DNA from: a virus
Lineage: Duplodnaviria > Heunggongvirae > Uroviricota > Caudoviricetes
Strand: one strand, 5' to 3'
DNA: 64,000 bases
IMG/VR virus record: IMGVR_UViG_3300029733_000185
The notes under the pieces are model-generated. The model was not told the DNA's origin, made no database searches, and was given only the letters and a program-made list of their open reading frames with translations. Positions 35,410 through 58,977 of this stretch are shown here, in pieces. Positions within the stretch are counted from its first letter, which is position 1. Each line of letters begins with the position of its first letter. The position numbers and the translations under genes are program-made.

Positions 35410-35462
35410 TGTTTATTACCTCTTTTGACAAATATTGTTGCACATTTGCCCGTGCCAGGCTT

Positions 35463-37937: not shown

Positions 37938-38071
37938 AGCCTTTTGTTAAATACTCGTTTGCGCTGTTTTTTGATTAGAAAATACAGCGAAAAAAGATAT
38001 TTTTTAACCTCGATTCTCTAATGTTTTTTCTAATTATTAATACCTCAAAAACAAAAAAAGACAAAAAATCT

Positions 38072-38386: not shown

Positions 38387-38430
38387 AGCATAAAAAAAAG
38401 GAGCGCCAAAATGACGCTCCTCAACCCTTC

Positions 38431-39351: not shown

Positions 39352-39355
39352 GTTT

Positions 39356-39793: not shown

Positions 39794-39889
39794 AACTTAC
39801 ATCACTCCTATAAAGAAATAAATCTCCCGCACGCATTGGTGCGATACTAAAAATATACCACACTTTTGCATACGAGAGAAATTTTTGGA

Positions 39890-41242: not shown

Positions 41243-41256
41243 ATATATATCCCCCT

Positions 41257-41871: not shown

Positions 41872-41886
41872 ATCCTTCCGATATAG

Positions 41887-42477: not shown

Positions 42478-43030
42478 TATTGGAATCTTCTCCAACATTC
42501 TGTACAAATTCGTAACTGGAAGTAAAATCAATTTTTCCGGTTGAAATTTTTGTTGGCTTATCGGCCAATGCCAATTTAGTTGTGTATGAGATCTTTGCTG
42601 TTACAGTGAAGTCAACCTTAAAGCTGTGATCTGTTGAATCTTTTGTAACGGACTTGATGTTAATGTCATCAAGACTAATTGTGAACCCGTTGCCAACAAG
42701 CTGATTGTTCTCTTCATCCGTTTTAAAGTTCGGGTTCTTCTCGAGAAAATACAGATATTTGTTTTTAAGGGTTGTCCCCTGCTCTTCCAGCTTTGCCTCA
42801 AGATCGCCCTGATACGACCCGCTCTGGAAATCAGAGAGTGAGTCATATGTTTCTCTTTGCAGTGTCGTTTCTAACATTGTAAGAGAATGTTCAAATGCGC
42901 GCGTCACAGTATAATGCGTGTTAAGCATATATACAACTTGAATCATTGTAAATGCCACGAGAATGATCATAACGCAAATTGCGCTTCCGCCAATAATGGA
43001 TGCACGCTTGTTTTTTAGAGTAGATTGCAT
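42434..43030 (-). CDS. TadE/TadG-like N-terminally anchored protein
   Basis: 198 aa; basic N-terminus then TM; beta-rich remainder. Confidence 0.4.
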   Translation of the reverse strand: MQSTLKNKRASIIGGSAICVMIILVAFTMIQVVYMLNTHYTVTRAFEHSLTMLETTLQRETYDSLSDFQSGSYQGDLEAKLEEQGTTLKNKYLYFLEKNPNFKTDEENNQLVGNGFTISLDDINIKSVTKDSTDHSFKVDFTVTAKISYTTKLALADKPTKISTGKIDFTSSYEFVQNVGEDSNNVSGNTGGYADQGN

Positions 43031-43042
43031 AATACAGCCCCC

Positions 43043-43537
43043 TTACTCCGACTTGAAGTAAACTTCACCAACGCCGGAAGAAGTGGCCGACAGCGTTGTT
43101 TTTACGGCCTTGCCGCCCACATGGAACAAGACCACCTGTGCTGAAGTGTGTACAGTAAATTCATCACCCAGGTTCACACCATATTGCCCGGCTTTGGAGT
43201 CACTTGTTAGCAGTAAGTCATCATAATGATAATAACTTGTATTCTCAGACTCTGTGTGAAAGCGAATCTCCAGCGAACCCGTCTCAATCCGTTTTCCAAG
43301 CTGTTTTGCCGCAGTGTCATAAATTTCTTCGCTTTTTGCATTATCGATTTCGCCACACACCGACACAGTTCTGGCAACATTATTTGCCACGATGTTCATG
43401 GTGTAAATGGAGAACACGTTGATAGTTAATTCAATGAGAATAACCACCAAGATAACTGCAATCGAGAAGAAAATTATAAAATCCGTTGATTGAGCAAAAG
43501 CCCTTTTCTCTTTTAGCTTCTGCTTGATTTGTGTCAA
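43043..43537 (-). CDS. TadE/TadG-like N-terminally anchored protein
   Basis: 164 aa; same architecture. Confidence 0.4.
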   Translation of the reverse strand: MTQIKQKLKEKRAFAQSTDFIIFFSIAVILVVILIELTINVFSIYTMNIVANNVARTVSVCGEIDNAKSEEIYDTAAKQLGKRIETGSLEIRFHTESENTSYYHYDDLLLTSDSKAGQYGVNLGDEFTVHTSAQVVLFHVGGKAVKTTLSATSSGVGEVYFKSE

Positions 43538-43556
43538 TATAGTAAACCACCTCTTT

Positions 43557-44267
43557 CTAAGCTACTTGCAAACAAATATTTGTATCGGCATTGTCTGTGT
43601 CGTAGTAATAATCTGTAAAGAAAGTTGGGCTCTTTTTTTTGAACGCCTGAACAACTTTTTCAATACGCGTTCTCACTTGCTTTTCAGACAACCCGTATTT
43701 TACGCCGACGGCTTTATCTGATTTCACTTTATCCGGATCTGAAAACTTATATAACAGCAGCTCCCCATCATCAATAGCAGCCACATCATGCAGCAAAGTC
43801 TTATTCATTATTTCCTGTTCTGTTTCGTTATGGTCTTTGCTCTTTCGACCCAGCACATAGTTCTGAACGGTGACTGATTTCATCTCATCGCGTCGTTCTT
43901 TTGGAATGTTACCCGTCACTTTTAAAAAGCCGGATTTTTTTTCATTCTTAAATGCGATATCCAGGGCTTTATTTAAATAATTCAAAAACGGACCATCCGG
44001 CTCACGATAATTGCTCACACATTTCTGTATTGTTACAAAATATAGAGAATTAAAATCATCCACCGAACAGTATGGCAAATATGCATTCTTCATTGCTACT
44101 TGAATTTTGCTTTTCACTTTACACTGTCGATAACACACCGCAATCAACTCTTGTGAGGCTTTGCCGACTTCGTGATCACGAGCAGCCATCGCCGTCACGT
44201 CAACGCTTTTTGCGGACGTATATGCCTTTGTATTGACCACATTTGCCAAATTGTATCCGTTTACCAT
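43557..44267 (-). CDS. hypothetical protein, possible sigma-factor-like regulator
   Basis: 236 aa; C-terminal segment YGLSEKQVRTRIEKVVQAFKK resembles sigma region 4 HTH. Confidence 0.4.
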   Translation of the reverse strand: MVNGYNLANVVNTKAYTSAKSVDVTAMAARDHEVGKASQELIAVCYRQCKVKSKIQVAMKNAYLPYCSVDDFNSLYFVTIQKCVSNYREPDGPFLNYLNKALDIAFKNEKKSGFLKVTGNIPKERRDEMKSVTVQNYVLGRKSKDHNETEQEIMNKTLLHDVAAIDDGELLLYKFSDPDKVKSDKAVGVKYGLSEKQVRTRIEKVVQAFKKKSPTFFTDYYYDTDNADTNICLQVA

Positions 44268-44346
44268 AAAATTTTACCTACCTTTGAAAAAATAAAGGAG
44301 AACCGTGCAGACGGTCCTCCTGATTGACTACTTGTGAATATTACTG

Positions 44347-44706
44347 CTACTTTGCGTAACGCTCAATAGCTTCCTGGGTTGGCTCCAAGGTACCAACGAT
44401 GTATTTCCTCATTGCCTCCTCAAAATAATGCTTAAAGACAACATATTGATTGGAGTCGCATTTCATTAATATACAGTACGTTCTTTTCGCATAGCTTTTC
44501 TTTGTGACCTCTGAAATATCCAAAATATTGATATTTTTCAGCCTGTTGTCCTTCATCTTTGCGAACATAATCATTGGTTTTACATTTACTTCCTGATTAT
44601 CTTTCAAGCAGTAATAAATCGTTAGATTATGTGGTTTGGTATCTTGCAGTGACTTCGGCAGTTGTTTGCTCGGCCCCTTGCTTCTCATGGTTATTTTTTG
44701 TTTCAA
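44347..44706 (-). CDS. hypothetical protein
   Basis: 119 aa. Confidence 0.5.
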   Translation of the reverse strand: MKQKITMRSKGPSKQLPKSLQDTKPHNLTIYYCLKDNQEVNVKPMIMFAKMKDNRLKNINILDISEVTKKSYAKRTYCILMKCDSNQYVVFKHYFEEAMRKYIVGTLEPTQEAIERYAK

Positions 44707-45623
44707 GCTTTTCCCTCCTGTTTTTGTTTTGGTGCTTCGTTTGCACTATTTGTTGCATCAACTTTGGCGCTCTTTGCTGTCTTCCTAGTCTTGATCAACT
44801 GTACAATTGTGTTAATCAGGTTCCATGTGTAAGTTACGATAAAATAGAAACTAATCACGATTGGCGTATTAAACACAATCGTTGCAGTCAACGCCAAAAA
44901 TGCCGTGTTCAAAATTGGCTGCGTTAACATCATAGCCTTACCCGCTGGTTTGAGTTTCTTAAAGCTTAATCGCATTTTTTCAATGCTCTGCCACAACCCA
45001 ATAATGTATTGTAAAACATACAAAACCATAGCCAATGTGGGGATAGACATCAACTGAGGATTATCCTTTACCGGTGGCACCAAATAGGTTTTTAATGAGC
45101 CCAAAGAAAAAGAGTCTCTTAAATCATAAAGCTTTTGAATGTCCGCTTTAGACACTCCGCCCTTTTCAAAGTCCGACTCATACTTTTCCAGATCCTTTAA
45201 CACACGGATTTCCGTGTATGGTGTGGACTTCTCTTCTTTGTCCATATATATTTGTGTAATGGTAGTTGCCGTGTCCTTTTCAACCACATGAAAATTAGAA
45301 ATGGGCTTAAATGTTGTAACCATTACTGCCACAATAGCAAAGTCAATAATGATTAATGCCGCTTTGGATAGAAATGTTAAATATGGATTGTAATTGGATT
45401 CCTTGTAGTATTCGTAAATCTTATCAGAGAGCACATCTCTGTCCCCGCCTGCTTCTTTTTGAAGCTGTGCGATTTTTTCGTCTCTAACAGCCTTTTCTTC
45501 ACTTTGCTTTTTGCTGTATTTATTCAAGAATATACGAATGATTTTAGTCACCAAACAAAGACCGATGATAAAAGCGGGATAACAAGTAATGGGAATGCCT
45601 AAAAGCCGAACTGTGGCTAACAT
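44703..45623 (-). CDS. polytopic membrane protein, possibly YidC/Oxa1-like insertase
   Basis: 306 aa; first TM followed by K/E-rich amphipathic segment ending ESNYNPY, reminiscent of YidC C1 loop. Confidence 0.45.
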   Translation of the reverse strand: MLATVRLLGIPITCYPAFIIGLCLVTKIIRIFLNKYSKKQSEEKAVRDEKIAQLQKEAGGDRDVLSDKIYEYYKESNYNPYLTFLSKAALIIIDFAIVAVMVTTFKPISNFHVVEKDTATTITQIYMDKEEKSTPYTEIRVLKDLEKYESDFEKGGVSKADIQKLYDLRDSFSLGSLKTYLVPPVKDNPQLMSIPTLAMVLYVLQYIIGLWQSIEKMRLSFKKLKPAGKAMMLTQPILNTAFLALTATIVFNTPIVISFYFIVTYTWNLINTIVQLIKTRKTAKSAKVDATNSANEAPKQKQEGKA

Positions 45624-47051: not shown

Positions 47052-47224
47052 CGTAGCATCCGACGCTTCATTGGAATCTTCTAACTCCCTAAATGGTTTA
47101 TAATTTCAAACAACAAAGGAGCGTCTCTGTGTATGAAAATTATAGCACATTTGCTTTCCACGGCAAAATATAATATACTGCAAAACAAACTAAAAAGGAC
47201 TGTCCTCTCGGACAGCCTTTTTTT

Positions 47225-47518
47225 CTACTTTAACGTTACGCCTCGTAATTCGTGATCCGGATATTTAGCCGTATCTTCGGTGTAGTTATTTGCAGTATAT
47301 TCTTCACTCCAACCGGACGCTTCCGGTTGAGTAGTTAAATCGACATCAGAGTCAGATTTATGTGCAAACAAAATGCCCAAAATAACGGATACGATACAGA
47401 TCACGATAATCACAACGACGATGATTTTATTCTTCCGTTTATCGCCTTTCGGCTGATCCACAACATCATCCGCGTCTGCGTCAATGATGCTGCGGTCTTT
47501 TTTCTCTTTTTGTTTCAT
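47225..47518 (-). CDS. small membrane protein
   Basis: start MKQKEKKD with GGAGGG RBS; acidic N-terminus, one TM. Confidence 0.45.
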   Translation of the reverse strand: MKQKEKKDRSIIDADADDVVDQPKGDKRKNKIIVVVIIVICIVSVILGILFAHKSDSDVDLTTQPEASGWSEEYTANNYTEDTAKYPDHELRGVTLK

Positions 47519-47561
47519 AATACCCTCCACAGGGGCGCTAAATGCGCCCCTGTCTTTGTTT

Positions 47562-50500
47562 TTACCACGGAGAAGTCTCACGTGTCTTGAAGTCGTCAAA
47601 CAGGCTTCCGTTGATCTTTACGGCGTTTGAATCACCAACATAGCTTAACATACCACTTGGCGTCCAGCAATCAGCAACACGAACCTGGATCTTGTAGTCC
47701 GTATCGTTTGGATACCATACCGGGACATGGTGCAGTGAACGTGCGCTGCTGTCCTCATCCTCATATTCCATAAACTTAAACCAATATGGGTTTTCGTTCG
47801 TGTTGGCACCAGTAGGACGCAATGATGCATAAGGTCCAAAATACTTTCTGTCAGTTGGAACCGATTTGAGTCCATACATCGCATACAACGCCGAGTATTT
47901 ACCATTGATTGTCTGGTAATTGTACTCTGGATAATATGCCAATGCAGATTGCGCGTTTACGCAACTATCATCTGGTAAAACAGGATCCGTCTTACGCTGT
48001 GGCGTTAAGTCCGCTGTTACTCGACTCTCAAGACTGTAACCGCTTTTGGTTTCCCAGTAATTCTCGTCGTTATTGTTTTCGACTTTTTTGCTTGGGTTCT
48101 GAGCACTGCCTGCACCGGTAGATGCCAGAGGTTTTAACAGATTCTCTTGGAAGCCAAGTCTTGCTGTGTAAGTATGCAGTTTAAACACTCCATTTTCGCA
48201 GGTGTATTCCTGCCATGAAGTCGTGTTCGCATACGGCTTGTCATTTGTCGGGTCTTTATAAGAATATCCATCTCCACCATTCAGGTTATAACCTTCATAA
48301 TTTGTGAAACTGGTATCGTCAAGATCGTTTAGCTGCACAAGGTTTTTGTCTTGCAGCCCTGAGTCGCAATACACAAACTGTCCATTCCCCTCGTCATTAT
48401 AACGTACCTGAACCCACGGTACGACACCATAGAACTTGTATCCCAATGATTCATAAGAGTCGTCAATTGAACTAACAGCAGGCGTTCTAACAGTATAATA
48501 AATCAGATTGTTCTTTGCAGCCGGTACTACAGCGGTTCTGGCGGCGTACTGACAGTTGTATCGACCAATCAATTTCTTATCGTATTTGACTTCCACATTT
48601 TCAATGGCTTCATACTGCCACTCTCCTGTGTTTAAATTATACAATTTGGCATACAGACCACCGGTCGCATTCAAAGCATTTTGATCGGTAAAGTTTTTCG
48701 TGCTGTGGTTATCCACTATAAAGGACGTTACAACATCCGTGCCATATGAATACTTTGCATTTGGATATTGGAATTTAACATCCACGGGCAGATACTTTTC
48801 ATTGACATAACAACCGACATTGTAAGTAGCACCTTTACTTCCGTCTGTCGGAACACCGCCAAACAAACCGATGTGCTTTTTTTCTGAATCTTTATGTCCT
48901 GGTGCTTCATAGCACAATTGATACTTTAAATTTGCTGTACCACTTGGTCCACACCCGAACCACATTGTTGATGGCTCTGAATAATACGCTGTCATAGAAT
49001 CCAAAAGCTCTTTCGGGAAGTAATAGCTAAATACAAACGGGAAATCTTCTTTGTTATAGTAAGAAGAAAGCTTTGTGTTTGCTTGTACTCCGCTTGAAAT
49101 AGCAAATCCCATATTTTCAATTTGCTCTTCTGGACTTAATGCAAAGACCTCTCCAAACTGCGCTGCCCAAGAGTTTTCATCGATCGTATCGCGATTTGTT
49201 TCCGGTCCGTACAGCATTTTCGCAAACTCTAATTCCGTCATAGTGTCGGAGCTAACATTTTTCTCTTTTACAGCACTGTCTGGGATTGCATACGGCAATA
49301 GATCCACCTGTCTCTTTAATGGGTCAATCGGATCCGTAGAGCCACCAGCGGCTTCATATGCTTCTTTTGACAGATAGGTGTTGACGACTATGCCAGCCGT
49401 ACACTCAACGTCAAATGAATGGTCTGCAGTAATATTTTCAAAGGTATAGCTACCACCACTCCAGTACTTATAAACGTCGCTGACTGTCTTTTCAGTGTCG
49501 AGTCCTTTATCAATCACAATCTTATTTACCATAAATCCGTCATTTGGCGTAAACTCAATGGTTTTTGTTTCGCCATACTGTATTTCGGTAATTGTATCTG
49601 TAATTGTGCCGTTTGTAATACTGGTAGTAATTGTAAACGCAGGCACACAAACCACCTCAATAGACTTATCACCTACAAGCATTTGCAATAAGTCAACACG
49701 ATATTCTTGCTTATTTGCATCCCAATTCCAAATCAACGGACGAGTTGGGGTAGCCTTGCCACCTTGTGTAACCTTCTTTCCGTCAATCAAGACGGTATCA
49801 ACACGATAGCCTGGATCTGGTTTGAACGTAACAATACCATATGCCTTTGCTTGACTATAGTTACCATAGCGCAATCCCGTTACCGTATCAGAAATCGTTC
49901 CGTGTTGAATGCTGGTCGTGATTTTACAAGTATTCAAATCCATTTCAGCAGTATAATGTTCAGTTCCCTCATATTGCAACAATGGAGCTCCTTGTATATC
50001 GCTTTTGAATTTAAATACCAGGTTTGCAGTTGCATTACCTACATTCCCATTATAATTGGTTGACGTTTTTCTGCCATACAAACCAAACAAACGACGCTCA
50101 TCTTCTTGAATCGAAGATTCAATACTTGACAATATCCGCACGCTCATTTTATAAGGGTGCGTGCTTACAGGATAACGAGAGTCAGAACCATCATTTTTTT
50201 CAATTTTATAACCAGTATAGAAAAAATTCGATTTTCCAAACCCTTCGTTTGTTCCAGCAGCGCCACCACACCAAGTATAGGAATAACCGTCATTGTCTTT
50301 TAATACATCTCCATTTTCAAGTGTAATAGGTGTCGTGTAATTTGGACGTGCATCCCACTGATTTAACCTTGTTAATGGAAGCTCAGTATCATCATTTGAC
50401 TCCCCAAGCGTATGAAGCGTATTGCCTAATGTAACCTTATTTCCTTTGTTTGCACCGGCTGTGACAACCGTATTCTGTAATTTGTTAATATTATCGACTT

Positions 50501-53500
50501 TTTGCTTTAACCGGTCAGATTGGAATTCGTATGCGCTTATACCAACAAAATCGCTTGGGCGAACACCGGTTTTAGTAAGCATTTCAAATGGATTTACAAC
50601 AATGTCTGGATTTTCTTTTAAGCTGTTTTTGATATTATACTTTGTTGCGGCATCAGTTGCGTATATATCAATCGTTGTTGTAGAACAAAGCACCTTCAGA
50701 ATAACAATAAATGAACCATCGCGAGGCAGATTGTGCAACTTAAAATCACTTAACATATTATATAACGCATCAGAAGATATAGTAGTATCCGAATTTCCAA
50801 AGTAAAAGACTTCTGAATTCTCGTAATCAATATCCTTACCCCGGTATGTCACATCATCCGGAGACTGCGGATAAAGAGACTTTAAAGCGGTATATTTAAT
50901 AAAAGCGTCATCGTCATCCTCGTGAATAGCGTTATATGCATTATCTGGTATATTTCCTAATGGATAATACTCCAAGGCGAAGCCATATGCGTTCAAGCCT
51001 TCCATACCTTGTTGTAATTGATTCACATAATCTTTATCATCAAAGCTTGTCACTGTACACGATTGACCGAGCGAAAGGTACTTGGCAGACTTCTTAACCG
51101 CAGTACCGTCTACGCTAATTGGCAAACCATTCGACGTTACTGCGTAGAATTCACCGTATACTGATGATGCATCCACGAAGTTCAGCAAAATATTATTTCC
51201 GTTTTTAAAAGGCATTTTAGACACATCAGACAAGCTTTCAAAGGCTGCACTGCTTTCTCGTCCTATTTCTGCCTTTAAATCAGAAACGGGTGTATAGCCA
51301 GACAAAGATTTTACAGTAGCGCTCAAATCTTCGTTGTCAGATTTTGAAAAATCGTCGCACAAAACATTGTAATACAAGTCTTCGCTTGATTTTACAGTTA
51401 CAGAAATCCGATATTTTTTAATCAACTTAAAGTTTGATTTAGCTTTGCTGAACGCAGTTGTGTAAAAGCTGATACCCTTTGTTAACAAGCCGGCATTGTC
51501 ATCAGAATTCAAATTCCAGCCGTTGGCAAATTCTGTGACCTGCATAGCATTGTTGGACTCTTTTTCAGCTTTATAATCATCATAGCTAACAGAAAAATCA
51601 AACTCCGACTTCGTTTTTTCATCACGATATTGATAAGTCTTATTGTAATTTAATACTCTTGGAAGATCAGCTGCCGTTGGCTTGGTGTCGCGGCCATTGA
51701 TTAACATTTCGACAGCATTTGCCGTATCTGCCATAAGATTTGTGTCTGCCGTCTTGCCGACATCTCTCAGATTCACAGAAGTGTAAGGAGTGAATTTTCC
51801 GGAATTATTTTTTGTATAAAATCGAATGGTTGGCTCTGCATTTTTAAAAAACGAAAGCCCATCGTAAGACTTCATATCAATGGCGTCAAAATACATTGTA
51901 ATGGTTTGTTCATGCAATTTATCTGACTTCAGATAATAATCGGCCTTTGCATATTTTCCTGTATATGTAACCTTTTGAGACGGCTCATCAAACCATACGG
52001 AGCTTTTTTTGTTTTCCCAAACATTGACTGCTTTCCCATTTTGAATAAATGAAAAATCAAAACGATAGTTGCCAGGTTCCTTAGGATAGTACGCATAATT
52101 AAAATACACAGAACCATCATTTCCTAAAGACATATCTTTACTAACATCGATTTCTTTATCCAATTCTACAGCCTGATATTCACCTGTTTCGTCCTGCTTA
52201 TACACACTCAGCGACAATTTCTCGATCGGCGAATTACCATCTTCATCCGGATTTAAATTCATGGAATTAAGATGCGTATGCACACGCAAATCCACATAAG
52301 CCGCACTGTACAAATCAACTTCTGTTAGATAATTTTTCCCGATAACCGATTTTTGACCTGTAACCTTCGCGCCTGCAAAAGCCTTCAAAGATGAAACAAC
52401 CGTCTTTTCCTCGACCGTCTCAAAAGGCTTACCAACCTGTGCGTCAGCGTTATTAACGGCATCGTATGAGTAATAACTTAGTTTAACAGATTGATAATCC
52501 TGAATATTCTTATCGTCTTGTCCCACTCTAAAATCATGATCAGGAAGAATCAAAAATTTATAAGAATCAGCATCACCTTTAAACTCGACCATTCCGTTTT
52601 CATCGGTCTTGTACACCTTTACGTCTGGATCAGAATTTGGCTCACCGCAAACAGAACAATACAAGTCAGAATATTTGTTGTAGACGTAAAATGTACTCGC
52701 ATGGTTGAATATATTGTTTTCATCTAACCAGTCCAGTACCTCACCACATGCCGGGCATTTGATTGCACCCAAAGAACAATGTTCACCGCAAACGCTACAC
52801 TCACGATAAGAACACCCAGCGCAAACCCATTTTAAATCTTCCGGGTTTTCTGATTTTGCAAAGTCATCAAACTTATCGTTTGAAAGTACCAAAATTGAAG
52901 CGTTTTGTGCGGGCTTGCGTGTGCCGTCTGAAGAATCATAAATAACCAACCGGTTAAATTGGTCTCCGACATAACACTCTGCATCATATTCTCTTACTTG
53001 TCCTGTATATCGTATGCCACCGCCGGTCACTTCATCTTGATAATAATATCGATCAGTTGTGTTGTCACGAATAACAAAGTAATAGTAATAACCGACTTGC
53101 AGTTCGCTACTTTCCAGTCTCACCTGTGCATAAGACGGATAAAGTACAGTAGAGCACTGCGTTGTGCCTGGTGCTTGTAAGGTGCCACACTCATAGCACT
53201 GCCATCTCTTTGCTTGATCTTTGCACAGCCACTTCGTGCTGTTTCCGATTTTTACTTCATAAAATGTTTTTACAATCAGATCTTCTGGCGCTACTTCTAC
53301 AGAAGAACTACATAGATTGATAGGCATCGCAGATAAAAAGCCGTCACTGCTCATTTGATATGGAGTCGTTTTGTGAATAATTTTGTTGCTTTTTTGTAAC
53401 GCTTCAACATTATTTCCTTCAACCCAGTGACCGCCCGGGCAATATACAAAGGATTTTGATTTACCAGTGTATTCATAGCCAGCAACACCATACTGCTTAC

Positions 53501-56500
53501 CAGTGCATCTCTCCGGGTATTGAGGATTATTGAGTGTGTTTGGCGTTGCGGTCGTCAATTTATCGGTTACATCCTTTACGTACTCCACATCATACATTGA
53601 ACCTTGACAAGTCAGCGTAGAGTTAGAATGGCCACAGGTAGAGCACTTCCAAGTCTTGGACGAAGCCGTTTGTTGCATATAGGTATTTGTGCATGTTTCT
53701 CCATCGCATTCAAAACCACTATTTGTAGTTCCGCACTTTGAACATTGCCATGCTTCCGGAACAACCCAAAACTCAGGGACACTTCCCTGGTCGTCGATAG
53801 ATTTACCGCAGTCTGGACAAATAGAAGCATTCTCTACGATACTACCGCATGAGCACTTCCAAGCATAGTCGTTTTGAGCCGTCAAATAATCAGTGAAATT
53901 TGAACCACACTTTTCATTGATGTTGTTGAACAATTCATCCGCATTGACCGGCAGCGAAGAAAGTGACTTGGATCGATACAAAAGCAGCTGAGAACCGGTT
54001 TTAAGCAGATTTAAAGCCCCAACAGCTTCGTCTCCGCGAGCAAACAAATTATACTCAATACCGCCTTCACCATCGCCCTTAGGCATATAATACAGATACA
54101 CATTCAGAGTGCCGTGCATTTCATCAACAGTAAAATCAGGCTCCGCTGCTACTTCTTTATGTTGGTAGTTACCAAACACATCTATGTAACCATAAGCACC
54201 AACATAATCGCATGTGCTTCCACCATATTCTACAGATTCTTTGAAATATGGAACGTTTTCTGTAGTCGTTGTTGTATTGCCGTCAGCGTCCGTCTGTTCA
54301 ACGGTATCTTCATAATAACCGCCTTTAAATGTAAACGCTTTAGCTGCGTCCCAATCCAGAACCTTCGATGACACAATAGCGTTGTCTTCATAGATAGAAG
54401 AACTATTGTAATCAAAGCTGTCTGTCAATGCCACATAGTTCAGAATGACTTTAGAATCACTGACCGGAGCAAATGTAACATGGATATCAGAAGCCTTCAA
54501 AGATGCAACATTCGTGTTGAAGGACATTTTATAGAACTGCTCACTGTTTTGTGGATAAAGTGTTCTGGAACCAACAGGGCTGCCGTCTTTATTTACTGCA
54601 CCATCGTCTACAACAATGCTCACAATCTTAAAGCCAGTTGATTTTGGAATCGAAACCGTAACTACCTTGCCCAATGAGTTATTGTCCGTTACATACATAT
54701 CTGTTTCCACAGAATTTTCGTATTCAGTTGAAGCTCCGGCCTGCCCGGAAGGCTTAATCGCCTTGTTGCTCCCCTCTTGAAGCGTCCAGTTATCTGATAC
54801 GCTTACCCATTTGGAGATTTTCTTTTGTGCCTCATCTGCAGCTTCTTTTGCATCAGCCGCAGCTGCCACCGCCTGATCATCACTTGGATCAATTGTTACA
54901 TCTTTATAATTGGACTCATAATAATTGATGGCATTTAGCAAATCATCAATTCCGGACAAAGAACCGGCTGCTGAAATATTGTTTTGCAGCTGCCACTGCG
55001 CATAATAGGTTACTTCACCTTCAGCAGGCGTCTTGATCGTCGTTACCTGATCTTTAGCATAATCATAGTTATCTGCCGTAGCGCCCCAGCCCTTGAATGT
55101 CCTGTTCAGATCTTCCAAATCGCCGTTCAGCCCGGCTATTGCAGCTGTGCCCGTACAATCATGCCCCTTTACTGAAGGCGCATTGATCGTCTGTCCAACG
55201 TTAGCAGTTGTTGAACTGATCGTTGCACCACACAGCGCACAAGCGAAGTTTACCGTAGACTGCAGCGTGAATGTGTACTTTGCATAATACACTGTCACTT
55301 TAGCACTTGGCATTGTAATGTCATTGCCGACAGTCAATGAAGCATTATCCGACTTATCATTCACCGTATAATCAGGATTTGTTCCCCAATAGCTGAATGC
55401 AATTTTATAATCACTCAGCGGATGACCTTTGTATTGCAAATTACTTAAATTGCTGGAGTCATTATGAGACTCGCCTGCAGGCACAGGACCCTGTGTTGAG
55501 CCTGGTGCACCACGCAGCAGCGCAATCTCATTTTCATCAATGGAACACTTAAATAAAACTTTGTTTTCATTCGTCAACTTGAGGGTGTACTTTGCATAAT
55601 ACTTTTGCGTGCTGCTTGGCACAGTTGTTTGAGAACCGGCCTTATGGTTGCTCAACACGCTCAAGCTATCGTTCAGTGTGCCGGTAGCCAGCTTATCATT
55701 TGCATTGCTGTCTTGCCCCCAACCTTGGAATGTGATTGAATAATCTCCAACATCAATGGTCTTGCCATTGTATGTAATCTTTCCACCGTTGACAGAGCAC
55801 ACATGTTTTGAACCGGTTGGGATAGTGTACTTTTCTCCGGCGTAATGTTCTCTGTCATTTTTACTGGTTGAAGTATCATACAGTTGTGCTCCGCACAAAC
55901 CGCAGTAATACACTGCTCTGCCCTTTGCGTTCTCTTTCTTATCCAGGCACATCCAGAATGTGGTATCGCCATAAATCTTTTTCTGACTTGGCGTCGGATT
56001 GGTCATTTTTGAGCCATTCTTTGACGCGCTCCAATGTTTATAGCTATAAGTATATTTGTAGTTGTTGTGCTTTTGAGGATGCGTCTTTTCTTGGTCGTTG
56101 AAGTAGCTTCCGGAAACTGTCTCACCATGTGCCACAGCAATCATCTTTAAGGTCGCTCCATCTTCAGAACATTTTAAATAAGCCTTATGTGCCACGGTCT
56201 TTAGATTAAACAGCACACGCACGGTATCATAACGACCACCACAGATATAGCCCTTAACACCGGCAGTTTTATCTTTGCCCTGGAAATACGTTGCTTTGTT
56301 ATAAATATCAGGTGCATTCATATGCCAAGCCAAATTGACAGACACATTGGACCGGCGGGATGTGTAGAATGTCAGCTTATTACCGCTCACTTCTACCTTC
56401 ATAAACGGTTCTGCAGGTTTTGTTTTCAGCTTAGCGGAGCTTACTGGAACATAGCCATAATAGCTGCTATCCTTTTTTTGCTTGTTACCAAAATACACGC

Positions 56501-57713
56501 AATAATATTTACCGTTTCTTGTCTTTCCAAGAATTGTAACTCCAGATTTCTGTCCATTTTTGGTAGTTACCAAGCCAGGGCGCACTGCGCTGTTCACATC
56601 ACAAATCACCTTAGACTGTGTAGTTGCTTGCGAATAGACTTTAACATCACCGGTAAAAGTGGTGGTAAATACTGAGCCATCACTGTTTCGAATAGGAAGC
56701 ACAATCTTATTTGGATCATACTTGCCATACTCAGTACCCAAAAACTTTTTGGAAACATAGTAAGTAGATTCATAACGCTTTTTGCTGTCATTCCATGCCA
56801 TCTGTGTATAATCATTACTACCCAGATCGCTGAAGTTACGCCATTGACTTCCACTCTTATACTGGAACTGCTGCCCATTCATCTGCATCTCGGCAGCTTC
56901 CAAAATTTCGTTATAGTAATCAGGACAATCTTTTACATTATTGAAATACTTATTCTTTACAGTGTAATAGAAGTCATGCCAATAATAACGATAAGAAGCG
57001 TCAATGCTCTTGCTGTAAGATCCTACGATATCCTGACTGCGCTCTTTATGCTTAGCATTAGCCTTATACGATTTAGAACGCACATCCGTCCACTTCGTAT
57101 CATTGCCAAAGCCAACACGCTTGCCCTCATCCAGCTCCCACAGAATACACTGTGTAGCAATAAAATACAGCTGCTCACGATAAAACTGATCACCGGAGTT
57201 AGTGGTGAATTGTTTAAAACCGTTGAGGAGGACATAATAAATTCTCCGCGCCCTCTTTTCTGGAAGTTTAATACCGTCACTTTTTGCAGCATTAATAAAA
57301 TCAGTAATCTTGTTTGGATCTACATTGATTGTCGTTACCGCACTGGCTCCGCTCTCATCACTGGTATAACCGTAAGATCTGGAAAGACGGAAAATCGGCA
57401 CTTCATCTTTTCCAGCATTCTTTTCACTGCCGGACAAATCTGATGAAACATACTTTCTCAGAAGATTGGTCGTACCAGCACCGGCTTTGTTCCCGGCAAT
57501 TTCTCTACTGTATTCCGGAATGCGAATTTTACCATTCTCATTCTTACCATAGTTGTAGTTCCAGGCAACTTTGTATTTCTTACCATTGGAAATGGTAATC
57601 TGCCCAGATGCTACGTTGGCAAATGCCTGAATGGCTCCGACCGGAAATGTTGTAAAGAACATTAGCAATGCCAAGAACACAGATAAAATTCTTTTTGGAA
57701 TAGATTTTTTCAT
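47562..57713 (-). CDS. giant secreted protein (3383 aa) with Listeria-Bacteroides-type repeats and multiple CxxC zinc-ribbon motifs
   Basis: signal peptide MKKSIPKRILSVFLALLMFFTTFPVGAIQAFA; repeats with FKGWG...YYAQW signature; at least 8 CxxC...CxxC clusters; no LPXTG. Confidence 0.85.
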   Translation of the reverse strand: MKKSIPKRILSVFLALLMFFTTFPVGAIQAFANVASGQITISNGKKYKVAWNYNYGKNENGKIRIPEYSREIAGNKAGAGTTNLLRKYVSSDLSGSEKNAGKDEVPIFRLSRSYGYTSDESGASAVTTINVDPNKITDFINAAKSDGIKLPEKRARRIYYVLLNGFKQFTTNSGDQFYREQLYFIATQCILWELDEGKRVGFGNDTKWTDVRSKSYKANAKHKERSQDIVGSYSKSIDASYRYYWHDFYYTVKNKYFNNVKDCPDYYNEILEAAEMQMNGQQFQYKSGSQWRNFSDLGSNDYTQMAWNDSKKRYESTYYVSKKFLGTEYGKYDPNKIVLPIRNSDGSVFTTTFTGDVKVYSQATTQSKVICDVNSAVRPGLVTTKNGQKSGVTILGKTRNGKYYCVYFGNKQKKDSSYYGYVPVSSAKLKTKPAEPFMKVEVSGNKLTFYTSRRSNVSVNLAWHMNAPDIYNKATYFQGKDKTAGVKGYICGGRYDTVRVLFNLKTVAHKAYLKCSEDGATLKMIAVAHGETVSGSYFNDQEKTHPQKHNNYKYTYSYKHWSASKNGSKMTNPTPSQKKIYGDTTFWMCLDKKENAKGRAVYYCGLCGAQLYDTSTSKNDREHYAGEKYTIPTGSKHVCSVNGGKITYNGKTIDVGDYSITFQGWGQDSNANDKLATGTLNDSLSVLSNHKAGSQTTVPSSTQKYYAKYTLKLTNENKVLFKCSIDENEIALLRGAPGSTQGPVPAGESHNDSSNLSNLQYKGHPLSDYKIAFSYWGTNPDYTVNDKSDNASLTVGNDITMPSAKVTVYYAKYTFTLQSTVNFACALCGATISSTTANVGQTINAPSVKGHDCTGTAAIAGLNGDLEDLNRTFKGWGATADNYDYAKDQVTTIKTPAEGEVTYYAQWQLQNNISAAGSLSGIDDLLNAINYYESNYKDVTIDPSDDQAVAAAADAKEAADEAQKKISKWVSVSDNWTLQEGSNKAIKPSGQAGASTEYENSVETDMYVTDNNSLGKVVTVSIPKSTGFKIVSIVVDDGAVNKDGSPVGSRTLYPQNSEQFYKMSFNTNVASLKASDIHVTFAPVSDSKVILNYVALTDSFDYNSSSIYEDNAIVSSKVLDWDAAKAFTFKGGYYEDTVEQTDADGNTTTTTENVPYFKESVEYGGSTCDYVGAYGYIDVFGNYQHKEVAAEPDFTVDEMHGTLNVYLYYMPKGDGEGGIEYNLFARGDEAVGALNLLKTGSQLLLYRSKSLSSLPVNADELFNNINEKCGSNFTDYLTAQNDYAWKCSCGSIVENASICPDCGKSIDDQGSVPEFWVVPEAWQCSKCGTTNSGFECDGETCTNTYMQQTASSKTWKCSTCGHSNSTLTCQGSMYDVEYVKDVTDKLTTATPNTLNNPQYPERCTGKQYGVAGYEYTGKSKSFVYCPGGHWVEGNNVEALQKSNKIIHKTTPYQMSSDGFLSAMPINLCSSSVEVAPEDLIVKTFYEVKIGNSTKWLCKDQAKRWQCYECGTLQAPGTTQCSTVLYPSYAQVRLESSELQVGYYYYFVIRDNTTDRYYYQDEVTGGGIRYTGQVREYDAECYVGDQFNRLVIYDSSDGTRKPAQNASILVLSNDKFDDFAKSENPEDLKWVCAGCSYRECSVCGEHCSLGAIKCPACGEVLDWLDENNIFNHASTFYVYNKYSDLYCSVCGEPNSDPDVKVYKTDENGMVEFKGDADSYKFLILPDHDFRVGQDDKNIQDYQSVKLSYYSYDAVNNADAQVGKPFETVEEKTVVSSLKAFAGAKVTGQKSVIGKNYLTEVDLYSAAYVDLRVHTHLNSMNLNPDEDGNSPIEKLSLSVYKQDETGEYQAVELDKEIDVSKDMSLGNDGSVYFNYAYYPKEPGNYRFDFSFIQNGKAVNVWENKKSSVWFDEPSQKVTYTGKYAKADYYLKSDKLHEQTITMYFDAIDMKSYDGLSFFKNAEPTIRFYTKNNSGKFTPYTSVNLRDVGKTADTNLMADTANAVEMLINGRDTKPTAADLPRVLNYNKTYQYRDEKTKSEFDFSVSYDDYKAEKESNNAMQVTEFANGWNLNSDDNAGLLTKGISFYTTAFSKAKSNFKLIKKYRISVTVKSSEDLYYNVLCDDFSKSDNEDLSATVKSLSGYTPVSDLKAEIGRESSAAFESLSDVSKMPFKNGNNILLNFVDASSVYGEFYAVTSNGLPISVDGTAVKKSAKYLSLGQSCTVTSFDDKDYVNQLQQGMEGLNAYGFALEYYPLGNIPDNAYNAIHEDDDDAFIKYTALKSLYPQSPDDVTYRGKDIDYENSEVFYFGNSDTTISSDALYNMLSDFKLHNLPRDGSFIVILKVLCSTTTIDIYATDAATKYNIKNSLKENPDIVVNPFEMLTKTGVRPSDFVGISAYEFQSDRLKQKVDNINKLQNTVVTAGANKGNKVTLGNTLHTLGESNDDTELPLTRLNQWDARPNYTTPITLENGDVLKDNDGYSYTWCGGAAGTNEGFGKSNFFYTGYKIEKNDGSDSRYPVSTHPYKMSVRILSSIESSIQEDERRLFGLYGRKTSTNYNGNVGNATANLVFKFKSDIQGAPLLQYEGTEHYTAEMDLNTCKITTSIQHGTISDTVTGLRYGNYSQAKAYGIVTFKPDPGYRVDTVLIDGKKVTQGGKATPTRPLIWNWDANKQEYRVDLLQMLVGDKSIEVVCVPAFTITTSITNGTITDTITEIQYGETKTIEFTPNDGFMVNKIVIDKGLDTEKTVSDVYKYWSGGSYTFENITADHSFDVECTAGIVVNTYLSKEAYEAAGGSTDPIDPLKRQVDLLPYAIPDSAVKEKNVSSDTMTELEFAKMLYGPETNRDTIDENSWAAQFGEVFALSPEEQIENMGFAISSGVQANTKLSSYYNKEDFPFVFSYYFPKELLDSMTAYYSEPSTMWFGCGPSGTANLKYQLCYEAPGHKDSEKKHIGLFGGVPTDGSKGATYNVGCYVNEKYLPVDVKFQYPNAKYSYGTDVVTSFIVDNHSTKNFTDQNALNATGGLYAKLYNLNTGEWQYEAIENVEVKYDKKLIGRYNCQYAARTAVVPAAKNNLIYYTVRTPAVSSIDDSYESLGYKFYGVVPWVQVRYNDEGNGQFVYCDSGLQDKNLVQLNDLDDTSFTNYEGYNLNGGDGYSYKDPTNDKPYANTTSWQEYTCENGVFKLHTYTARLGFQENLLKPLASTGAGSAQNPSKKVENNNDENYWETKSGYSLESRVTADLTPQRKTDPVLPDDSCVNAQSALAYYPEYNYQTINGKYSALYAMYGLKSVPTDRKYFGPYASLRPTGANTNENPYWFKFMEYEDEDSSARSLHHVPVWYPNDTDYKIQVRVADCWTPSGMLSYVGDSNAVKINGSLFDDFKTRETSPW

Positions 57714-57807
57714 TGGACTTCCCCCTTACGGATAAAAAATAGATTGAATGTGAAAAAAGAAAAGGAACACCCTTGGTGCTCCTTTCAAAAAAAAATTCAT
57801 ATATAGA

Positions 57808-57821: not shown

Positions 57822-58154
57822 TCTCCACAAAAAGGAAAACAGCGCAAGCATAATGCTTGCGCTGCAAGTTACTTAAAACAGCGTTGATTCTACATATGCA
57901 ACTCCGTGCTAATTAAGAAACACGCATTCAAACAATCTTAATACTTAATAAAAGCGCATCTCTGCAATGCATTTTTCAACCGCGGAAATTGATGCCGACC
58001 TTCTCTTTTCAAACATAAGCCTTTCTTTATACCCTTCTGTTGATAAGATATTTCTTTCACCTTTCCGAGGAGATAATTTGATTTTTTGATCAGTATATAC
58101 TCTCTTTTTGTTTACCATAATTACACCAAACATATTATTATTGTTAAGAAGAAA

Positions 58155-58946: not shown

Positions 58947-58977
58947 AATACCTCCATTAAGATAGATAAGACTGCAT

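What the first reader, a model, noticed from the sequence alone, without database searches (positions are those of the whole stretch)
47562..57713. 3383-aa secreted giant protein combining Listeria-Bacteroides repeats with many zinc-ribbon-like CxxC pairs
This is a single uninterrupted ORF of 10.15 kb with a classic signal peptide and no LPXTG or TM anchor. It contains repeated units with the FKGWG...YYAQW signature of Listeria-Bacteroides (Flg_new) repeats. It also has at least eight CxxC...CxxC clusters (CGLCGAQ, CALCGAT, CPDCGKS, CSKCGTT...CDGETC, CSTCGHS, CYECGTL, CAGCSYRECSVCGEHC...CPACGEV, CSVCGEP), which are unusual in an extracellular protein. A TGTGTTATAATT promoter and a leader hairpin lie upstream. 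It may be a host-cell adhesin or mating-aggregate factor of the element, or a receptor-binding protein.
Basis: seen in the sequence. Interest (0 to 1): 0.6.

Follow-up and report, generated by a model that had tools for sequence, protein, structure and literature searches.

The report
Giant secreted adhesin of conjugative element
This 3383-residue gene is real and most likely encodes a huge secreted surface protein that helps a gut Clostridia conjugative element stick donor cells to recipient cells; it is unusual for rows of zinc-finger-like cysteine pairs outside the cell, a thioester-type head that has lost its reactive cysteine, and a swappable middle section.

Summary
The ORF (47562-57713, minus strand, 3383 aa) is intact and recurs in independent assemblies at 97% and 74% identity. 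The signal peptide, the absence of LPXTG or a C-terminal TM segment, ten CxxC motifs (about 1 expected), the extended -10 promoter and the leader hairpin are all confirmed. The Flg_new label is only weakly supported: there are three internally related units, plus a possible fourth seen by eye, and all are sub-threshold.

- The C-terminal ~400 aa is DUF8195 (PF26615). It always sits at the extreme C-terminus, in 256 representative protein clusters. It marks a conserved Clostridia gene cluster: T2SSE ATPase, T2SSF, DUF4320, DUF6550, DUF8195 protein, VirB4. Typical members are about 590 aa, so this one is a six-fold expansion.
- The N-terminus is a thioester-domain-like module with the Gln motif (ATQCILW) but Arg where the Cys should be, followed by an SH3b-like domain.
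- The Cys ligands are conserved in a homologue that is only 27% identical overall.
- Residues ~1381-2693 form a replaced cassette (no DNA similarity, 25-57% aa identity) between elements that are otherwise 94-100% identical.

Best reading: a sortase-independent mating or contact adhesin of a conjugative element. This is a new variant of a known kind. A phage receptor-binding protein is not supported.

The parts
57839..57865 (-). Terminator-like hairpin (12-bp stem plus T-run) that closes the upstream transcription unit
   Evidence: sequence; identical in relatives L001 and L083
57809..57820 (-). Extended -10 promoter element TGTGTTATAATT (TG-n-TATAAT at 57818-57810). No good -35 hexamer, so it was not picked up by the two-hexamer scan.
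   Evidence: sequence; not listed; TATAAT conserved in L001 and L083, but the TG is TA there, so the extension is not conserved
57750..57786 (-). Leader hairpin (12 pairs, GAAAGGAGCACC...GGTGTTCCTTTT) followed by a T-run. Terminator-like, so a possible attenuator; its function was not tested.
   Evidence: whole-leader MFE -20.4 kcal/mol, z -1.5
57721..57727 (-). Ribosome-binding site AAGGGGG, 7 nt before the ATG
47562..57713 (-). Giant ORF, 3383 aa plus stop
57618..57713 (-). Sec-type signal peptide, aa 1-32 (KK/KR n-region, hydrophobic core, AFA|N cleavage motif)
   Evidence: conserved in homologues
56724..57608 (-). Conserved N-terminal module, aa 36-330. It is thioester-domain (TED)-like, with the Gln motif ATQCILW (aa 186-192). 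It has FRLS (aa 108-111) where TEDs have [YFL]C-phi-pi, and there is no Cys in aa 33-188.
56424..56696 (-). SH3b-like (bacterial SH3, cell-wall-binding type) domain, aa ~340-430
54993..56201 (-). Divergent InlB-B-repeat / Flg_new-like units, aa ~505-907: three internally related units at aa ~598-907, plus a possible fourth seen by eye at aa ~505-595. Units 1 and 3 of the three related ones carry a CxxC...HxC knuckle (C604/C607/H637/C639 and C825/C828/H851/C853).
   Evidence: C825 invariant, C828 and H851 at least 90% conserved in the family
52614..53909 (-). Cys-rich region, aa 1269-1700: about seven zinc-ribbon-like knuckle sets, five with a W-x-C-x(1-2)-C start and three with the RanBP2/NZF-like Asn. 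They flank a conserved beta-rich core (aa ~1525-1630). W1629, C1631, C1634, C1653 and C1656 are invariant in all 11 family members.
   Evidence: sub-threshold Pfam hits to Zn_ribbon_3, zf-Sec23_Sec24, DZR, Zn_Ribbon_TF and RanBP
49635..53573 (-). Central replaced (hypervariable) cassette, aa ~1381-2693. It has no nucleotide similarity and 25-57% aa identity to the allele in L001/P0002, while both flanks of the gene are 94-100% identical.
   Evidence: flanking genes 94-100% identical
49134..49649 (-). Two tandem ~85-aa beta units, aa ~2689-2860 (TTSIxxGTIxD...G...F.P..G..V..v.iD). They look like divergent InlB-B-repeat (Flg_new_2) units.
   Evidence: seen in the translation; no profile hit; not tested further
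47565..48791 (-). C-terminal DUF8195 (PF26615) domain, aa ~2975-3383. The model shows at least two beta-sandwiches plus a terminal beta unit. Motifs: PNAxY..GT.V..SF.V.N; W.TKSGY; YYPEY.Y; H.VPVWYP; CWTPSGM; INGSLFDD.
47529..47553 (.). Perfect GC-rich palindromic hairpin (10 pairs) between the giant gene's stop codon and the next ORF
47225..47518 (-). Co-oriented 97-aa ORF (GGAGGG ribosome-binding site, ATG at 47518) encoding a bitopic membrane protein: Lys-rich N-terminus, one TM segment, ~45-aa exterior tail. It is conserved next to the giant gene in L001, L083 and L094 and is a candidate membrane partner (inference).
47198..47217 (-). Terminator-like hairpin plus T-run that ends the two-gene unit
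37206..45623 (-). Conserved downstream module: YidC-like insertase (44703-45623), DUF4320 pseudopilin-like protein (43043-43537), a 198-aa protein with an N-terminal TM segment (42434-43030), A24 prepilin peptidase (41887-42531), SNase, fn3 protein, NfeD, Band_7, and S26 signal peptidase (37206-37937)
811..3342 (-). VirB4/TraG-P-loop type conjugation ATPase of the same element
   Evidence: homologues lie within 10 kb of DUF8195 genes in 34 of 93 loci with this query and 52 of 93 with the L012 query

Best explanation
The gene encodes a giant, Sec-exported, sortase-independent surface protein of a Clostridia conjugative element. It is an expanded member of the DUF8195 family, and its most likely job is donor-to-recipient (or donor-to-surface) contact during mating.

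Proposed mechanism:
1. Transcription starts at an extended -10 promoter and passes a terminator-like leader hairpin (shown in sequence; regulation inferred).
2. The ~370-kDa preprotein is exported through Sec and cleaved after AFA. The element's own SecB-like, YidC-like and S26 signal-peptidase genes may help (inferred).
3. The conserved C-terminal DUF8195 beta-sandwich module holds the protein at the donor surface, next to the Tad-like/T4SS machinery with which this domain is almost always co-encoded (inferred from synteny and from its fixed C-terminal position).
4. A long stalk is built from Flg_new-like units, zinc-knuckle modules that would fold around Zn2+ after export in an anoxic habitat, and other beta-rich segments (inferred).
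5. The distal N-terminal head is a thioester-domain-like fold that has lost the reactive Cys, followed by an SH3b-like peptidoglycan-binding domain. It would bind the partner cell wall non-covalently. The centrally located replaced cassette tunes target specificity (inferred).
For: Conjugative context: the window holds a VirB4/TraG P-loop ATPase, an M23 cell-wall hydrolase of 1231 aa, topoisomerase III, a RecD-like helicase, a DUF3991+Toprim primase, DUF4320 and an A24 prepilin peptidase. No phage hallmark was found.

Family: the C-terminal ~400 aa is DUF8195. An exhaustive search finds 256 representative clusters with this domain, always at the extreme C-terminus. Many have signal peptides, and some carry Flg_new repeats, TED-like heads or SpaA domains.

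Synteny: in 85 loci from Clostridia genomes and IMG/VR the order is T2SSE, T2SSF, DUF4320, DUF6550, DUF8195 protein (median 590 aa), VirB4, all on one strand. The hosts include non-gut genera (Desulfosporosinus, Desulfitobacterium, Pseudobacteroides), which argues for a role in the transfer apparatus rather than in animal-host adhesion.

Experimental precedent: the TED adhesin of pLS20 lies in the conjugation operon, is needed for efficient mating in liquid, and also lacks LPXTG (PMC8092201).

Specificity cassette: sharp recombination breakpoints sit inside the gene while the flanks are nearly identical.

Cys ligands: almost all are conserved at 27% overall identity, and five positions are invariant family-wide.
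Against: There is no experimental data of any kind.

The window lacks the T2SSE/T2SSF genes of the canonical cluster, and its gene order differs: DUF4320 lies downstream of the giant gene.

Which end is anchored is not shown. SH3b domains usually anchor proteins to the producer's own wall, so the polarity could be reversed.

Typical DUF8195 proteins are small (~590 aa) with a different N-terminal domain, so the family's core role may be structural rather than adhesive.

A 97% identical copy lies on a 148-kb contig in IMG/VR, a collection of contigs called viral.
Confidence: 0.6

Rival explanations
1. It is a cargo adhesin that benefits the bacterial host (binding gut mucus, extracellular matrix, dietary particles or other microbes) and has no role in DNA transfer.
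For: The building blocks (TED-like head, Flg_new-like units, SH3b, Ig-like sandwiches) are typical of host- or matrix-binding fibrillar adhesins. The close homologues come from metagenome assemblies (Logan and ENA) whose habitat was not established here; gut origin is suggested only by the human-gut taxa among DUF8195 loci and by faecal phage records that hit the domain. The genes immediately upstream are variable accessory genes.
Against: The defining C-terminal domain is a near-constant member of a Tad-like/VirB4 gene cluster, including in environmental, non-host-associated Clostridia. The gene heads a module conserved at 94-100% identity between elements.
Confidence: 0.2
2. It is a structural part of the envelope-spanning Tad-like/T4SS apparatus (a scaffold, sheath or cell-wall channel component) rather than an adhesin. 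The extra domains would only lengthen or stiffen it.
For: Typical DUF8195 proteins are ~590 aa and sit between pseudopilin-like genes (DUF4320, DUF6550) and a VirB2/TrbC-like gene plus VirB4. That position suggests a core machine component.
Against: The domain is joined to highly variable N-terminal passenger regions of 64-3596 aa, with adhesin-type modules. A replaced central cassette is expected for a specificity determinant, not a scaffold.
Confidence: 0.12
3. It is a phage receptor-binding or tail-fibre protein of a large phage or phage-plasmid.
For: A 97% identical copy lies on a 148-kb IMG/VR contig. The window carries a 26-tRNA array, which is common in large phages. The protein has a mosaic central cassette, like tail fibres.
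Against: It has a classic Sec signal peptide and no PHROG hit. No capsid, portal, terminase or tail genes were found among the scanned ORFs; the only 'tail' hits come from the M23 domain. IMG/VR loci carrying DUF8195 also carry VirB4 and Tad-like genes, so they look like misfiled conjugative elements.
Confidence: 0.03
4. Sub-claim rival: the CxxC clusters form disulfide knots, not zinc sites.
For: The protein is extracellular, where Cys4 zinc sites are unusual. No zinc-ribbon profile reaches its curated cut-off (best 18.1 bits against 27).
Against: The spacing is that of zinc ribbons: W-x-C-x2-C-x3-N...C-x2-4-C, as in RanBP2/NZF fingers, and CxxC...HxC with a conserved His. All weak profile hits across 11 relatives are to zinc-ribbon families. 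Other secreted DUF8195 proteins carry classic DnaJ-type CxxCxGxG zinc-finger arrays. From general knowledge, the hosts are strict anaerobes that usually lack Dsb oxidases.
Confidence: 0.2

Closest known systems
TIE-pLS20 (gene 34 product of Bacillus subtilis plasmid pLS20), a class II thioester-domain adhesin required for efficient conjugation (PMC8092201)
   Same: It is encoded inside a Gram-positive conjugation gene set. It has an N-terminal signal peptide, then a TED-type head, then a beta-sandwich stalk. It lacks both LPXTG and a C-terminal TM anchor, and its proposed role is mating-pair formation.
   Different: pLS20 TIE has the reactive Cys (YCID), and that Cys is essential; here the position is Arg (FRLS), so no thioester can form. 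The stalk here is not CnaB but Flg_new-like units plus zinc knuckles. This protein also has a DUF8195 C-terminus and a replaced central cassette. No sequence homology between the two was demonstrated here.
DUF8195 (PF26615) proteins of the Clostridia T2SSE-T2SSF-DUF4320-DUF6550-DUF8195-VirB4 cluster
   Same: The C-terminal ~400 aa is homologous, with all hallmark motifs. It sits at the extreme C-terminus. The protein has a signal peptide and is co-encoded with DUF4320, a prepilin peptidase and VirB4.
   Different: It is about six times longer (3383 aa against a median of 590). It has a different N-terminal domain, a different gene order, and no T2SSE/T2SSF within the 64 kb. The family itself has no known function, and no paper in the searchable library mentions it.
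Sortase-anchored TIE / MSCRAMM fibrillar adhesins (SfbI, Cpa, BaTIE, Cpe0147; CD411-type proteins of MPF-FATA elements)
   Same: The overall logic is the same: signal peptide, reactive or binding head, repetitive Ig-like stalk, and a C-terminal attachment module.
   Different: There is no LPXTG, TM segment or charged tail. There is no thioester Cys. No isopeptide or ester domains were recognised. Cys-rich zinc-knuckle modules are not a feature of those families.
PrgB / aggregation substance of Enterococcus pCF10-type plasmids
   Same: It is a conjugative-element-encoded surface adhesin that promotes donor-recipient aggregation (general knowledge).
   Different: No sequence or domain similarity was found. 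PrgB is LPXTG-anchored and about 1300 aa.
Giant secreted proteins of 'Hodor' gut conjugative megaplasmids (PMC12934698)
   Same: These are large gut elements first collected among huge phage genomes. They are conjugative, encode giant signal-peptide proteins, and carry their own secretion helpers.
   Different: Hodor proteins are >7300 and ~2640 aa with S-layer/MBG domains. They are predicted to be sortase-anchored, and they come with SecYEG and trigger factor. Here the domains are DUF8195, TED-like and zinc knuckles, and the helpers are SecB-like, YidC-like, S26 and A24.
RanBP2/NZF, DZR and Zn_ribbon_3-type zinc ribbons
   Same: Two-knuckle CxxC...CxxC units, several with the W-x-C-x2-C-x3-N signature.
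   Different: All profile scores are below the curated cut-offs. The known examples are overwhelmingly cytoplasmic or nuclear, whereas these lie inside a Sec-exported protein.

Membership tests
DUF8195 (PF26615) | Match to the Pfam model | tested here: inconclusive
   The model is not in the local Pfam copy, so it could not be run on this protein. The precomputed PF26615 hit is recorded for the 97%-identical P0001, for P0002/3 and P0005-10, and for P0147, which shares only the C-terminal domain. Membership is therefore by proxy.
DUF8195 (PF26615) | Homologous domain located at the extreme C-terminus of a secreted protein | tested here: met
   phmmer of aa 2930-3383 finds 256 representative clusters at E<=1e-3, and the match ends within a few residues of the C-terminus in all those inspected.
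DUF8195 (PF26615) | Location in the T2SSE-T2SSF-DUF4320-DUF6550-(DUF8195)-VirB4 cluster | tested here: inconclusive
   The window has DUF4320, an A24 peptidase and VirB4. It has no T2SSE, T2SSF or DUF6550 homologue within the 64 kb, and the gene order differs.
Flg_new / Listeria-Bacteroides repeat (PF09479, TIGR02543) | Profile match at or above the curated cut-off | tested here: not met
   No hit at E<=10 for aa 481-920 or for the whole protein. An HMM built from 23 bona fide repeats scores about 0 bits. The homologue P0010 reaches 25.1 bits against 27.
Flg_new / Listeria-Bacteroides repeat (PF09479, TIGR02543) | Tandem ~70-aa units with ...nGG...GYxFxGW...LYAxW | tested here: inconclusive
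   Three internally related units have F.GW/F.YW...YYA.[YW], and a possible fourth was seen by eye. The first half is replaced by a CxxCG/HxC knuckle and long inserts. hhalign against true repeats gives P 1e-4 and probability 58%, over the second half only.
Zinc ribbon (Zn_ribbon_3, DZR, RanBP2/NZF-type) | Paired knuckles CxxC...CxxC (or CxxC...HxC) at ribbon spacing | tested here: met
   There are 10 CxxC motifs against 1.0 expected, and none of 20000 shuffles reaches 10. Five have a W-x-C-x(1-2)-C start.
Zinc ribbon (Zn_ribbon_3, DZR, RanBP2/NZF-type) | Ligand residues conserved across divergent relatives | tested here: met
   Nearly all Cys of aa 1269-1656 are conserved in P0004, which is 27% identical overall. 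C825, C1631, C1634, C1653 and C1656 are invariant in 11 members.
Zinc ribbon (Zn_ribbon_3, DZR, RanBP2/NZF-type) | Profile match above the cut-off | tested here: not met
   Best scores are 18.1 bits (Zn_ribbon_3 and zf-Sec23_Sec24) against cut-offs of 27 and 25. All family-wide hits are weak.
Zinc ribbon (Zn_ribbon_3, DZR, RanBP2/NZF-type) | Zinc actually bound | not testable with these tools
   This needs metal analysis of the purified fragment.
Thioester domain (TED, PF08341) | Thioester Cys in a [YFL]C-phi-pi motif | tested here: not met
   No Cys lies between the signal peptide and Q188. The invariant F/Y-R-L/V-S (aa 108-111) fits the motif with Arg in place of Cys (motif from PMC8092201). 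The register of this equivalence is inferred, not aligned.
Thioester domain (TED, PF08341) | Gln in a TQxx[IV]W motif | tested here: met
   A-T-Q-C-I-L-W at aa 186-192. Q188 and W192 are invariant in the family.
Thioester domain (TED, PF08341) | Profile or fold match | tested here: inconclusive
Sortase-anchored (LPXTG) surface proteins | C-terminal LPXTG-type motif, hydrophobic segment and charged tail | tested here: not met
   No [LNS]Px[TAS][GANS] motif occurs anywhere, there is no C-terminal hydrophobic window, and the protein ends ...DDFKTRETSPW.
SH3b (bacterial SH3, cell-wall binding) | SH3-like beta-barrel fold | tested here: met
Phage tail fibre / receptor-binding protein | Homology to virion proteins and location in a tail-gene module | tested here: not met
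   The protein has no PHROG hit. No structural genes were found among the neighbours scanned. It also has a Sec signal peptide.

The most novel reading that the evidence does not exclude
DUF8195 proteins are the exposed adhesin or tip component of a so far undescribed Tad-like 'conjugative pilus plus VirB4 T4SS' apparatus that is widespread in Clostridia. This 3383-aa version would be a hyper-extended form with three properties: its stalk is built partly from extracellular zinc-ribbon modules, its thioester head has been converted to a non-covalent (Cys-to-Arg) binder, and its exchangeable 1300-aa central cassette sets recipient range.
Probability: 0.25. Interest if true: 0.8.

Novelty: new variant of a known kind. 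Interest (0 to 1): 0.55.

Why it matters
How Gram-positive conjugative elements find and hold recipient cells is poorly understood; only a few adhesins (PrgB, pLS20 TIE) have been tested. This locus links an uncharacterised Pfam family (DUF8195) to a highly conserved Tad-like/VirB4 gene cluster across Clostridia, the main carriers of mobile DNA in the gut. That gives a concrete candidate for the contact factor.

Its allelic central cassette offers a testable handle on recipient specificity. The conserved zinc-knuckle arrays in a Sec-exported protein, and DnaJ-type arrays in relatives, suggest that anaerobes use zinc fingers as extracellular building blocks. The Cys-less thioester-like head would be a natural 'dead' variant of a covalent adhesin.

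It also illustrates that large conjugative elements are filed as viruses in viral contig collections.

Tried and rejected
- Whole-protein scans against Pfam, PHROGs, NCBIfam and PDB sequences gave only one faint zinc-finger hit.
- Megablast of the gene against plasmids found nothing. tblastn of the C-terminus found only 2 plasmid and 4 unannotated phage-collection records.
- The search for homologous proteins with aa 1-480 alone found nothing, although the full-length query had found near-identical proteins. This is apparently a limit of the word index for giant proteins. The search with the C-terminal profile returned one protein.
- Whole-protein self-BLAST found no repeats. Fragment-against-fragment BLAST found only the aa 600-880 units.
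- A profile of the N-terminus against PDB sequences found no TED, only weak SH3b hits. hhalign of the N-terminal profile against the canonical-TED protein of L003 aligned only a downstream segment (probability 12%). The Cys-to-Arg equivalence therefore remains motif-based.
- Foldseek of the N-terminal model gave weak papain/cathepsin hits (probability <=0.06). I reject these as noise; C189 is Val or Met in three relatives.
- Upstream regions of relatives are nearly identical, so they give no covariation evidence for the leader hairpin.
- No Rfam family lies in the leader.
- An attempt to extend the element beyond the window through the SocA-like gene failed.
- Literature searches for DUF8195, DUF4320 and Tad-plus-VirB4 in Firmicutes found nothing relevant.
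Full report
A single ORF runs from 57713 down to 47562 on the minus strand (3383 codons, ATG start). Full-length homologues of 3385, 3357 and 3358 aa exist in independent public assemblies at 97% and 74% identity, each representing 82-230 member sequences. A frameshift or mis-assembly is therefore excluded. The N-terminus is a textbook Sec signal peptide ending in AFA|N. It is the only hydrophobic stretch typical of a TM segment: other 19-aa windows above 1.4 occur only at aa 1017 and 2334-2335, and none lies at the C-terminus. No LPXTG-like motif is present.

There are 10 CxxC motifs, against a mean of 1.0 and a maximum of 6 in 20000 shuffles. Of the 59 cysteines, 29 lie in aa 1287-1689.

Upstream of the gene lie a terminator-like hairpin (57865-57839), an extended -10 element (TG-n-TATAAT, 57818-57810), a second 12-bp hairpin with a T-run in the leader (57786-57760) and a strong ribosome-binding site. 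These elements are conserved in the relatives, except that the TG of the extended -10 is TA in L001 and L083. The sequences are too similar to give covariation evidence.

2. Domain anatomy.
No curated profile library recognises the protein, apart from a faint zinc-finger hit. Comparison with its ten homologues shows conserved ends (aa ~1-640 and ~2975-3383) and a variable middle.

(c) aa ~505-907 holds the repeat units: three internally related ones at aa ~598-907, with a possible fourth seen by eye at aa ~505-595. Their first halves are different and carry CxxC...HxC knuckles. Against true Flg_new repeats the similarity is marginal: about 0 bits with an HMM built from 23 real repeats, and hhalign P 1e-4 over the second half only. 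One homologue's unit reaches 25.1 bits against the Pfam cut-off of 27. I call them Flg_new-like, not Flg_new.

(d) aa 1269-1700 is the Cys-rich region. Five knuckle sets start W-x-C-x(1-2)-C, and three have the RanBP2/NZF-type Asn. Nearly all these cysteines are retained in P0004, which is only 27% identical overall. W1629, C1631, C1634, C1653 and C1656 are invariant in all 11 relatives. Every weak profile hit across the family is to a zinc-ribbon family (Zn_ribbon_3, Zn_Ribbon_TF, DZR, zf-Sec23_Sec24, RanBP, NZF). Other signal-peptide-bearing DUF8195 proteins carry classic DnaJ-type CxxCxGxG arrays. Zinc knuckles are thus the best reading. Disulfides cannot be excluded by computation.

(e) aa ~2975-3383 is DUF8195. 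PF26615 is not in the local Pfam copy. It is precomputed for the near-identical homologues and for P0147, which shares only this domain.

3. The C-terminal domain is the key to the context.
An exhaustive phmmer search of 1.84 billion representatives finds 256 clusters with this domain. It is always at the very C-terminus of proteins 64-3596 aa long. Many of these have signal peptides, and some carry 3-8 true Flg_new repeats, TED-like heads or SpaA domains. The AF2 model (pLDDT 64, with well-predicted sandwiches) matches only generic beta-sandwiches: macroglobulin domains, transglutaminase barrels, CARDB and the Cpe0147 repeat.

In 85 loci from GTDB genomes and IMG/VR the gene order is strikingly constant on one strand:
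- T2SSE ATPase at about -6 kb
- T2SSF at about -4 kb
- DUF4320 at about -3 kb
- DUF6550 at about -1.7 kb
- the DUF8195 protein (median 590 aa, maximum 992)
- VirB4-like ATPase at +2 to +9 kb

Of 93 loci, many of them truncated, 73-78 hold the T2SSE, T2SSF and DUF4320 homologues and 52 hold VirB4. In several of the 16 clusters inspected, a VirB2/TrbC-like small protein follows directly (the VirB2/TrbC label rests on sequence inspection and recall, not on a profile match). The hosts span Lachnospiraceae, Oscillospiraceae, Enterocloster, Clostridium, Desulfosporosinus, Desulfitobacterium and Pseudobacteroides. No paper in the searchable library mentions DUF8195 or DUF4320.

4. The window itself is a conjugative-type element.
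It has a VirB4/TraG-P-loop ATPase, a 1231-aa M23 hydrolase, topoisomerase III, a RecD-like helicase and a DUF3991/Toprim primase. Directly downstream of the giant gene lies a module of YidC-like insertase, DUF4320, a pseudopilin-like 198-aa protein, A24 prepilin peptidase, SNase, fn3 protein, NfeD/Band_7 and S26 signal peptidase. A SecB-like gene lies upstream. No phage hallmark was found. A 97% identical copy nevertheless sits on a 148-kb IMG/VR contig. The canonical T2SSE and T2SSF genes were not found in the 64 kb, and the order differs from the canonical cluster.

5. A replaced cassette lies inside the gene.
Against the P0002/L001 allele the gene is 93.7% identical at the DNA level up to aa ~1381. 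It has essentially no detectable nucleotide similarity from aa ~1381 to ~2693 (a single 104-nt match at 75%), where the proteins are 25-57% identical. It is 96% identical again to the end. The downstream genes are 94-100% identical, while the upstream genes are variable or different. This is the pattern expected of a specificity determinant exchanged by recombination.

6. Mechanism.
Shown by the analysis: the protein has a Sec signal, it has no sortase signal, it is modular, its Cys ligands are conserved, it carries the DUF8195 domain, and that domain is syntenic with the Tad-like/VirB4 cluster. The rest is inferred.
- After Sec export, possibly helped by the element's own SecB-like, YidC-like and S26 genes, the DUF8195 module would keep the protein at the donor surface near the Tad-like/T4SS machinery. 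The co-transcribed 97-aa bitopic membrane protein (47225-47518) is a candidate partner.
- The stalk would be stiffened by zinc knuckles.
- The Cys-less TED-like head and the SH3b-like domain would bind the partner cell wall non-covalently, and the central cassette would tune specificity.
- The polarity could be the reverse, because SH3b domains usually bind the producer's own wall.
- The best experimental precedent is the pLS20 TED adhesin. It is required for efficient mating in liquid and also lacks LPXTG.

7. Rivals.
- A cargo adhesin for gut surfaces (0.2) is weakened by the domain's constant association with the transfer cluster, including in environmental anaerobes.
- A purely structural machine component (0.12) is weakened by the variable passenger regions and the cassette.
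- A phage receptor-binding protein (0.03) conflicts with the signal peptide and the gene context.
- Whether the Cys clusters bind zinc or form disulfides is a separate open point; I put zinc at about 0.8 and disulfides at about 0.2.

8. Novelty and verdict.
Conjugative-element-encoded surface adhesins with TED-type heads are a known kind. This one differs in several respects at once: a DUF8195 C-terminus instead of a sorting signal, a thioester-less head, extracellular zinc-knuckle arrays, a six-fold size expansion and an allelic cassette. It belongs to a family with no assigned function. I therefore rate it a new variant of a known kind, with interest 0.55.

The most novel reading not excluded is that DUF8195 proteins are the adhesin or tip of an undescribed Tad-like conjugative apparatus of Clostridia (probability about 0.25).

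Noticed in passing
window 29645-30538 and 32479-35538 (minus strand): An array of 26 tRNA genes on a conjugative-looking element. It is split by an IscB-like RRXRR+HNH gene (30772-32115) with its HEARO/omega RNA (32189-32435, 129 bits).
   Followed up: partly
window 61857-62309, 44703-45623, 41887-42531, 37206-37937 (minus strand): The element carries its own export helpers: a SecB-like chaperone, a YidC-like insertase, an A24 prepilin peptidase and an S26 signal peptidase, plus an NfeD/Band_7 pair (38431-39793). They may serve export of the giant protein, but this was not tested.
   Followed up: partly
loci L003-L093 (for example L012 3666-18229): A highly conserved Clostridia cluster: T2SSE ATPase, TadB/C-like T2SSF, DUF4320, a 183-aa protein, DUF6550, a DUF8195 protein, then (in several of the 16 clusters inspected) a small protein that looks VirB2/TrbC-like by eye, and a VirB4-like ATPase. 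This Tad-like module fused to a T4SS module appears in no paper of the searchable library.
   Followed up: partly
proteins P0021, P0029, P0034, P0061, P0118 (other DUF8195 proteins): Signal-peptide-bearing DUF8195 proteins carry arrays of DnaJ-type CxxCxGxG zinc-finger motifs. Extracellular zinc-finger modules therefore seem to recur in this class.
   Followed up: no
L003 8498-10975: An 825-aa DUF8195 protein from a Clostridiales MAG has a canonical thioester domain (YAYCIE ... ATQVVMWE) and SpaA-like domains. Reactive and Cys-less heads therefore coexist in the family.
   Followed up: partly
window 58155-60486 compared with L094 1-4399 and L001 1-1425: The genes immediately upstream of the giant gene differ between otherwise near-identical elements. 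The window has a weak C39-like 502-aa protein; L094 has a caspase-like Peptidase_C14. This looks like a variable accessory hotspot that ends at the terminator at 57865-57839.
   Followed up: partly
window 47225-47518 (minus strand): A 97-aa bitopic membrane protein gene follows the giant gene after a perfect GC-rich hairpin. It is conserved in L001, L083 and L094 and ends at a terminator (47217-47198). It is a possible membrane tether.
   Followed up: partly
window 11524-15321 (minus strand): An adjacent AAA_5 (MoxR/dynein-like) ATPase and a VWA/CobT_C-like protein pair sits inside the transfer region. Its role is unknown.
   Followed up: no
window 62855-63412 (minus strand): A SocA/Panacea-domain antitoxin-like gene lies next to a 183-aa ORF (62311-62862). 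This may be a toxin-antitoxin pair. The gene is not present on the related IMG/VR contig.
   Followed up: no
L083 (IMGVR_UViG_3300029365_000474, 147,778 bp) and L084-L093: IMG/VR 'viral' contigs carrying DUF8195 genes also carry VirB4 and Tad-like genes. They look like conjugative elements filed as viruses, the same situation reported for the 'Hodor' megaplasmids (PMC12934698).
   Followed up: partly
window 49134-49649 (aa ~2689-2860 of the giant protein): Two tandem ~85-aa units (TTSIxxGTIxD...F.P..G..V..v.iD...) resemble divergent InlB B-repeat (Flg_new_2) domains. No profile hit was obtained.
   Followed up: no
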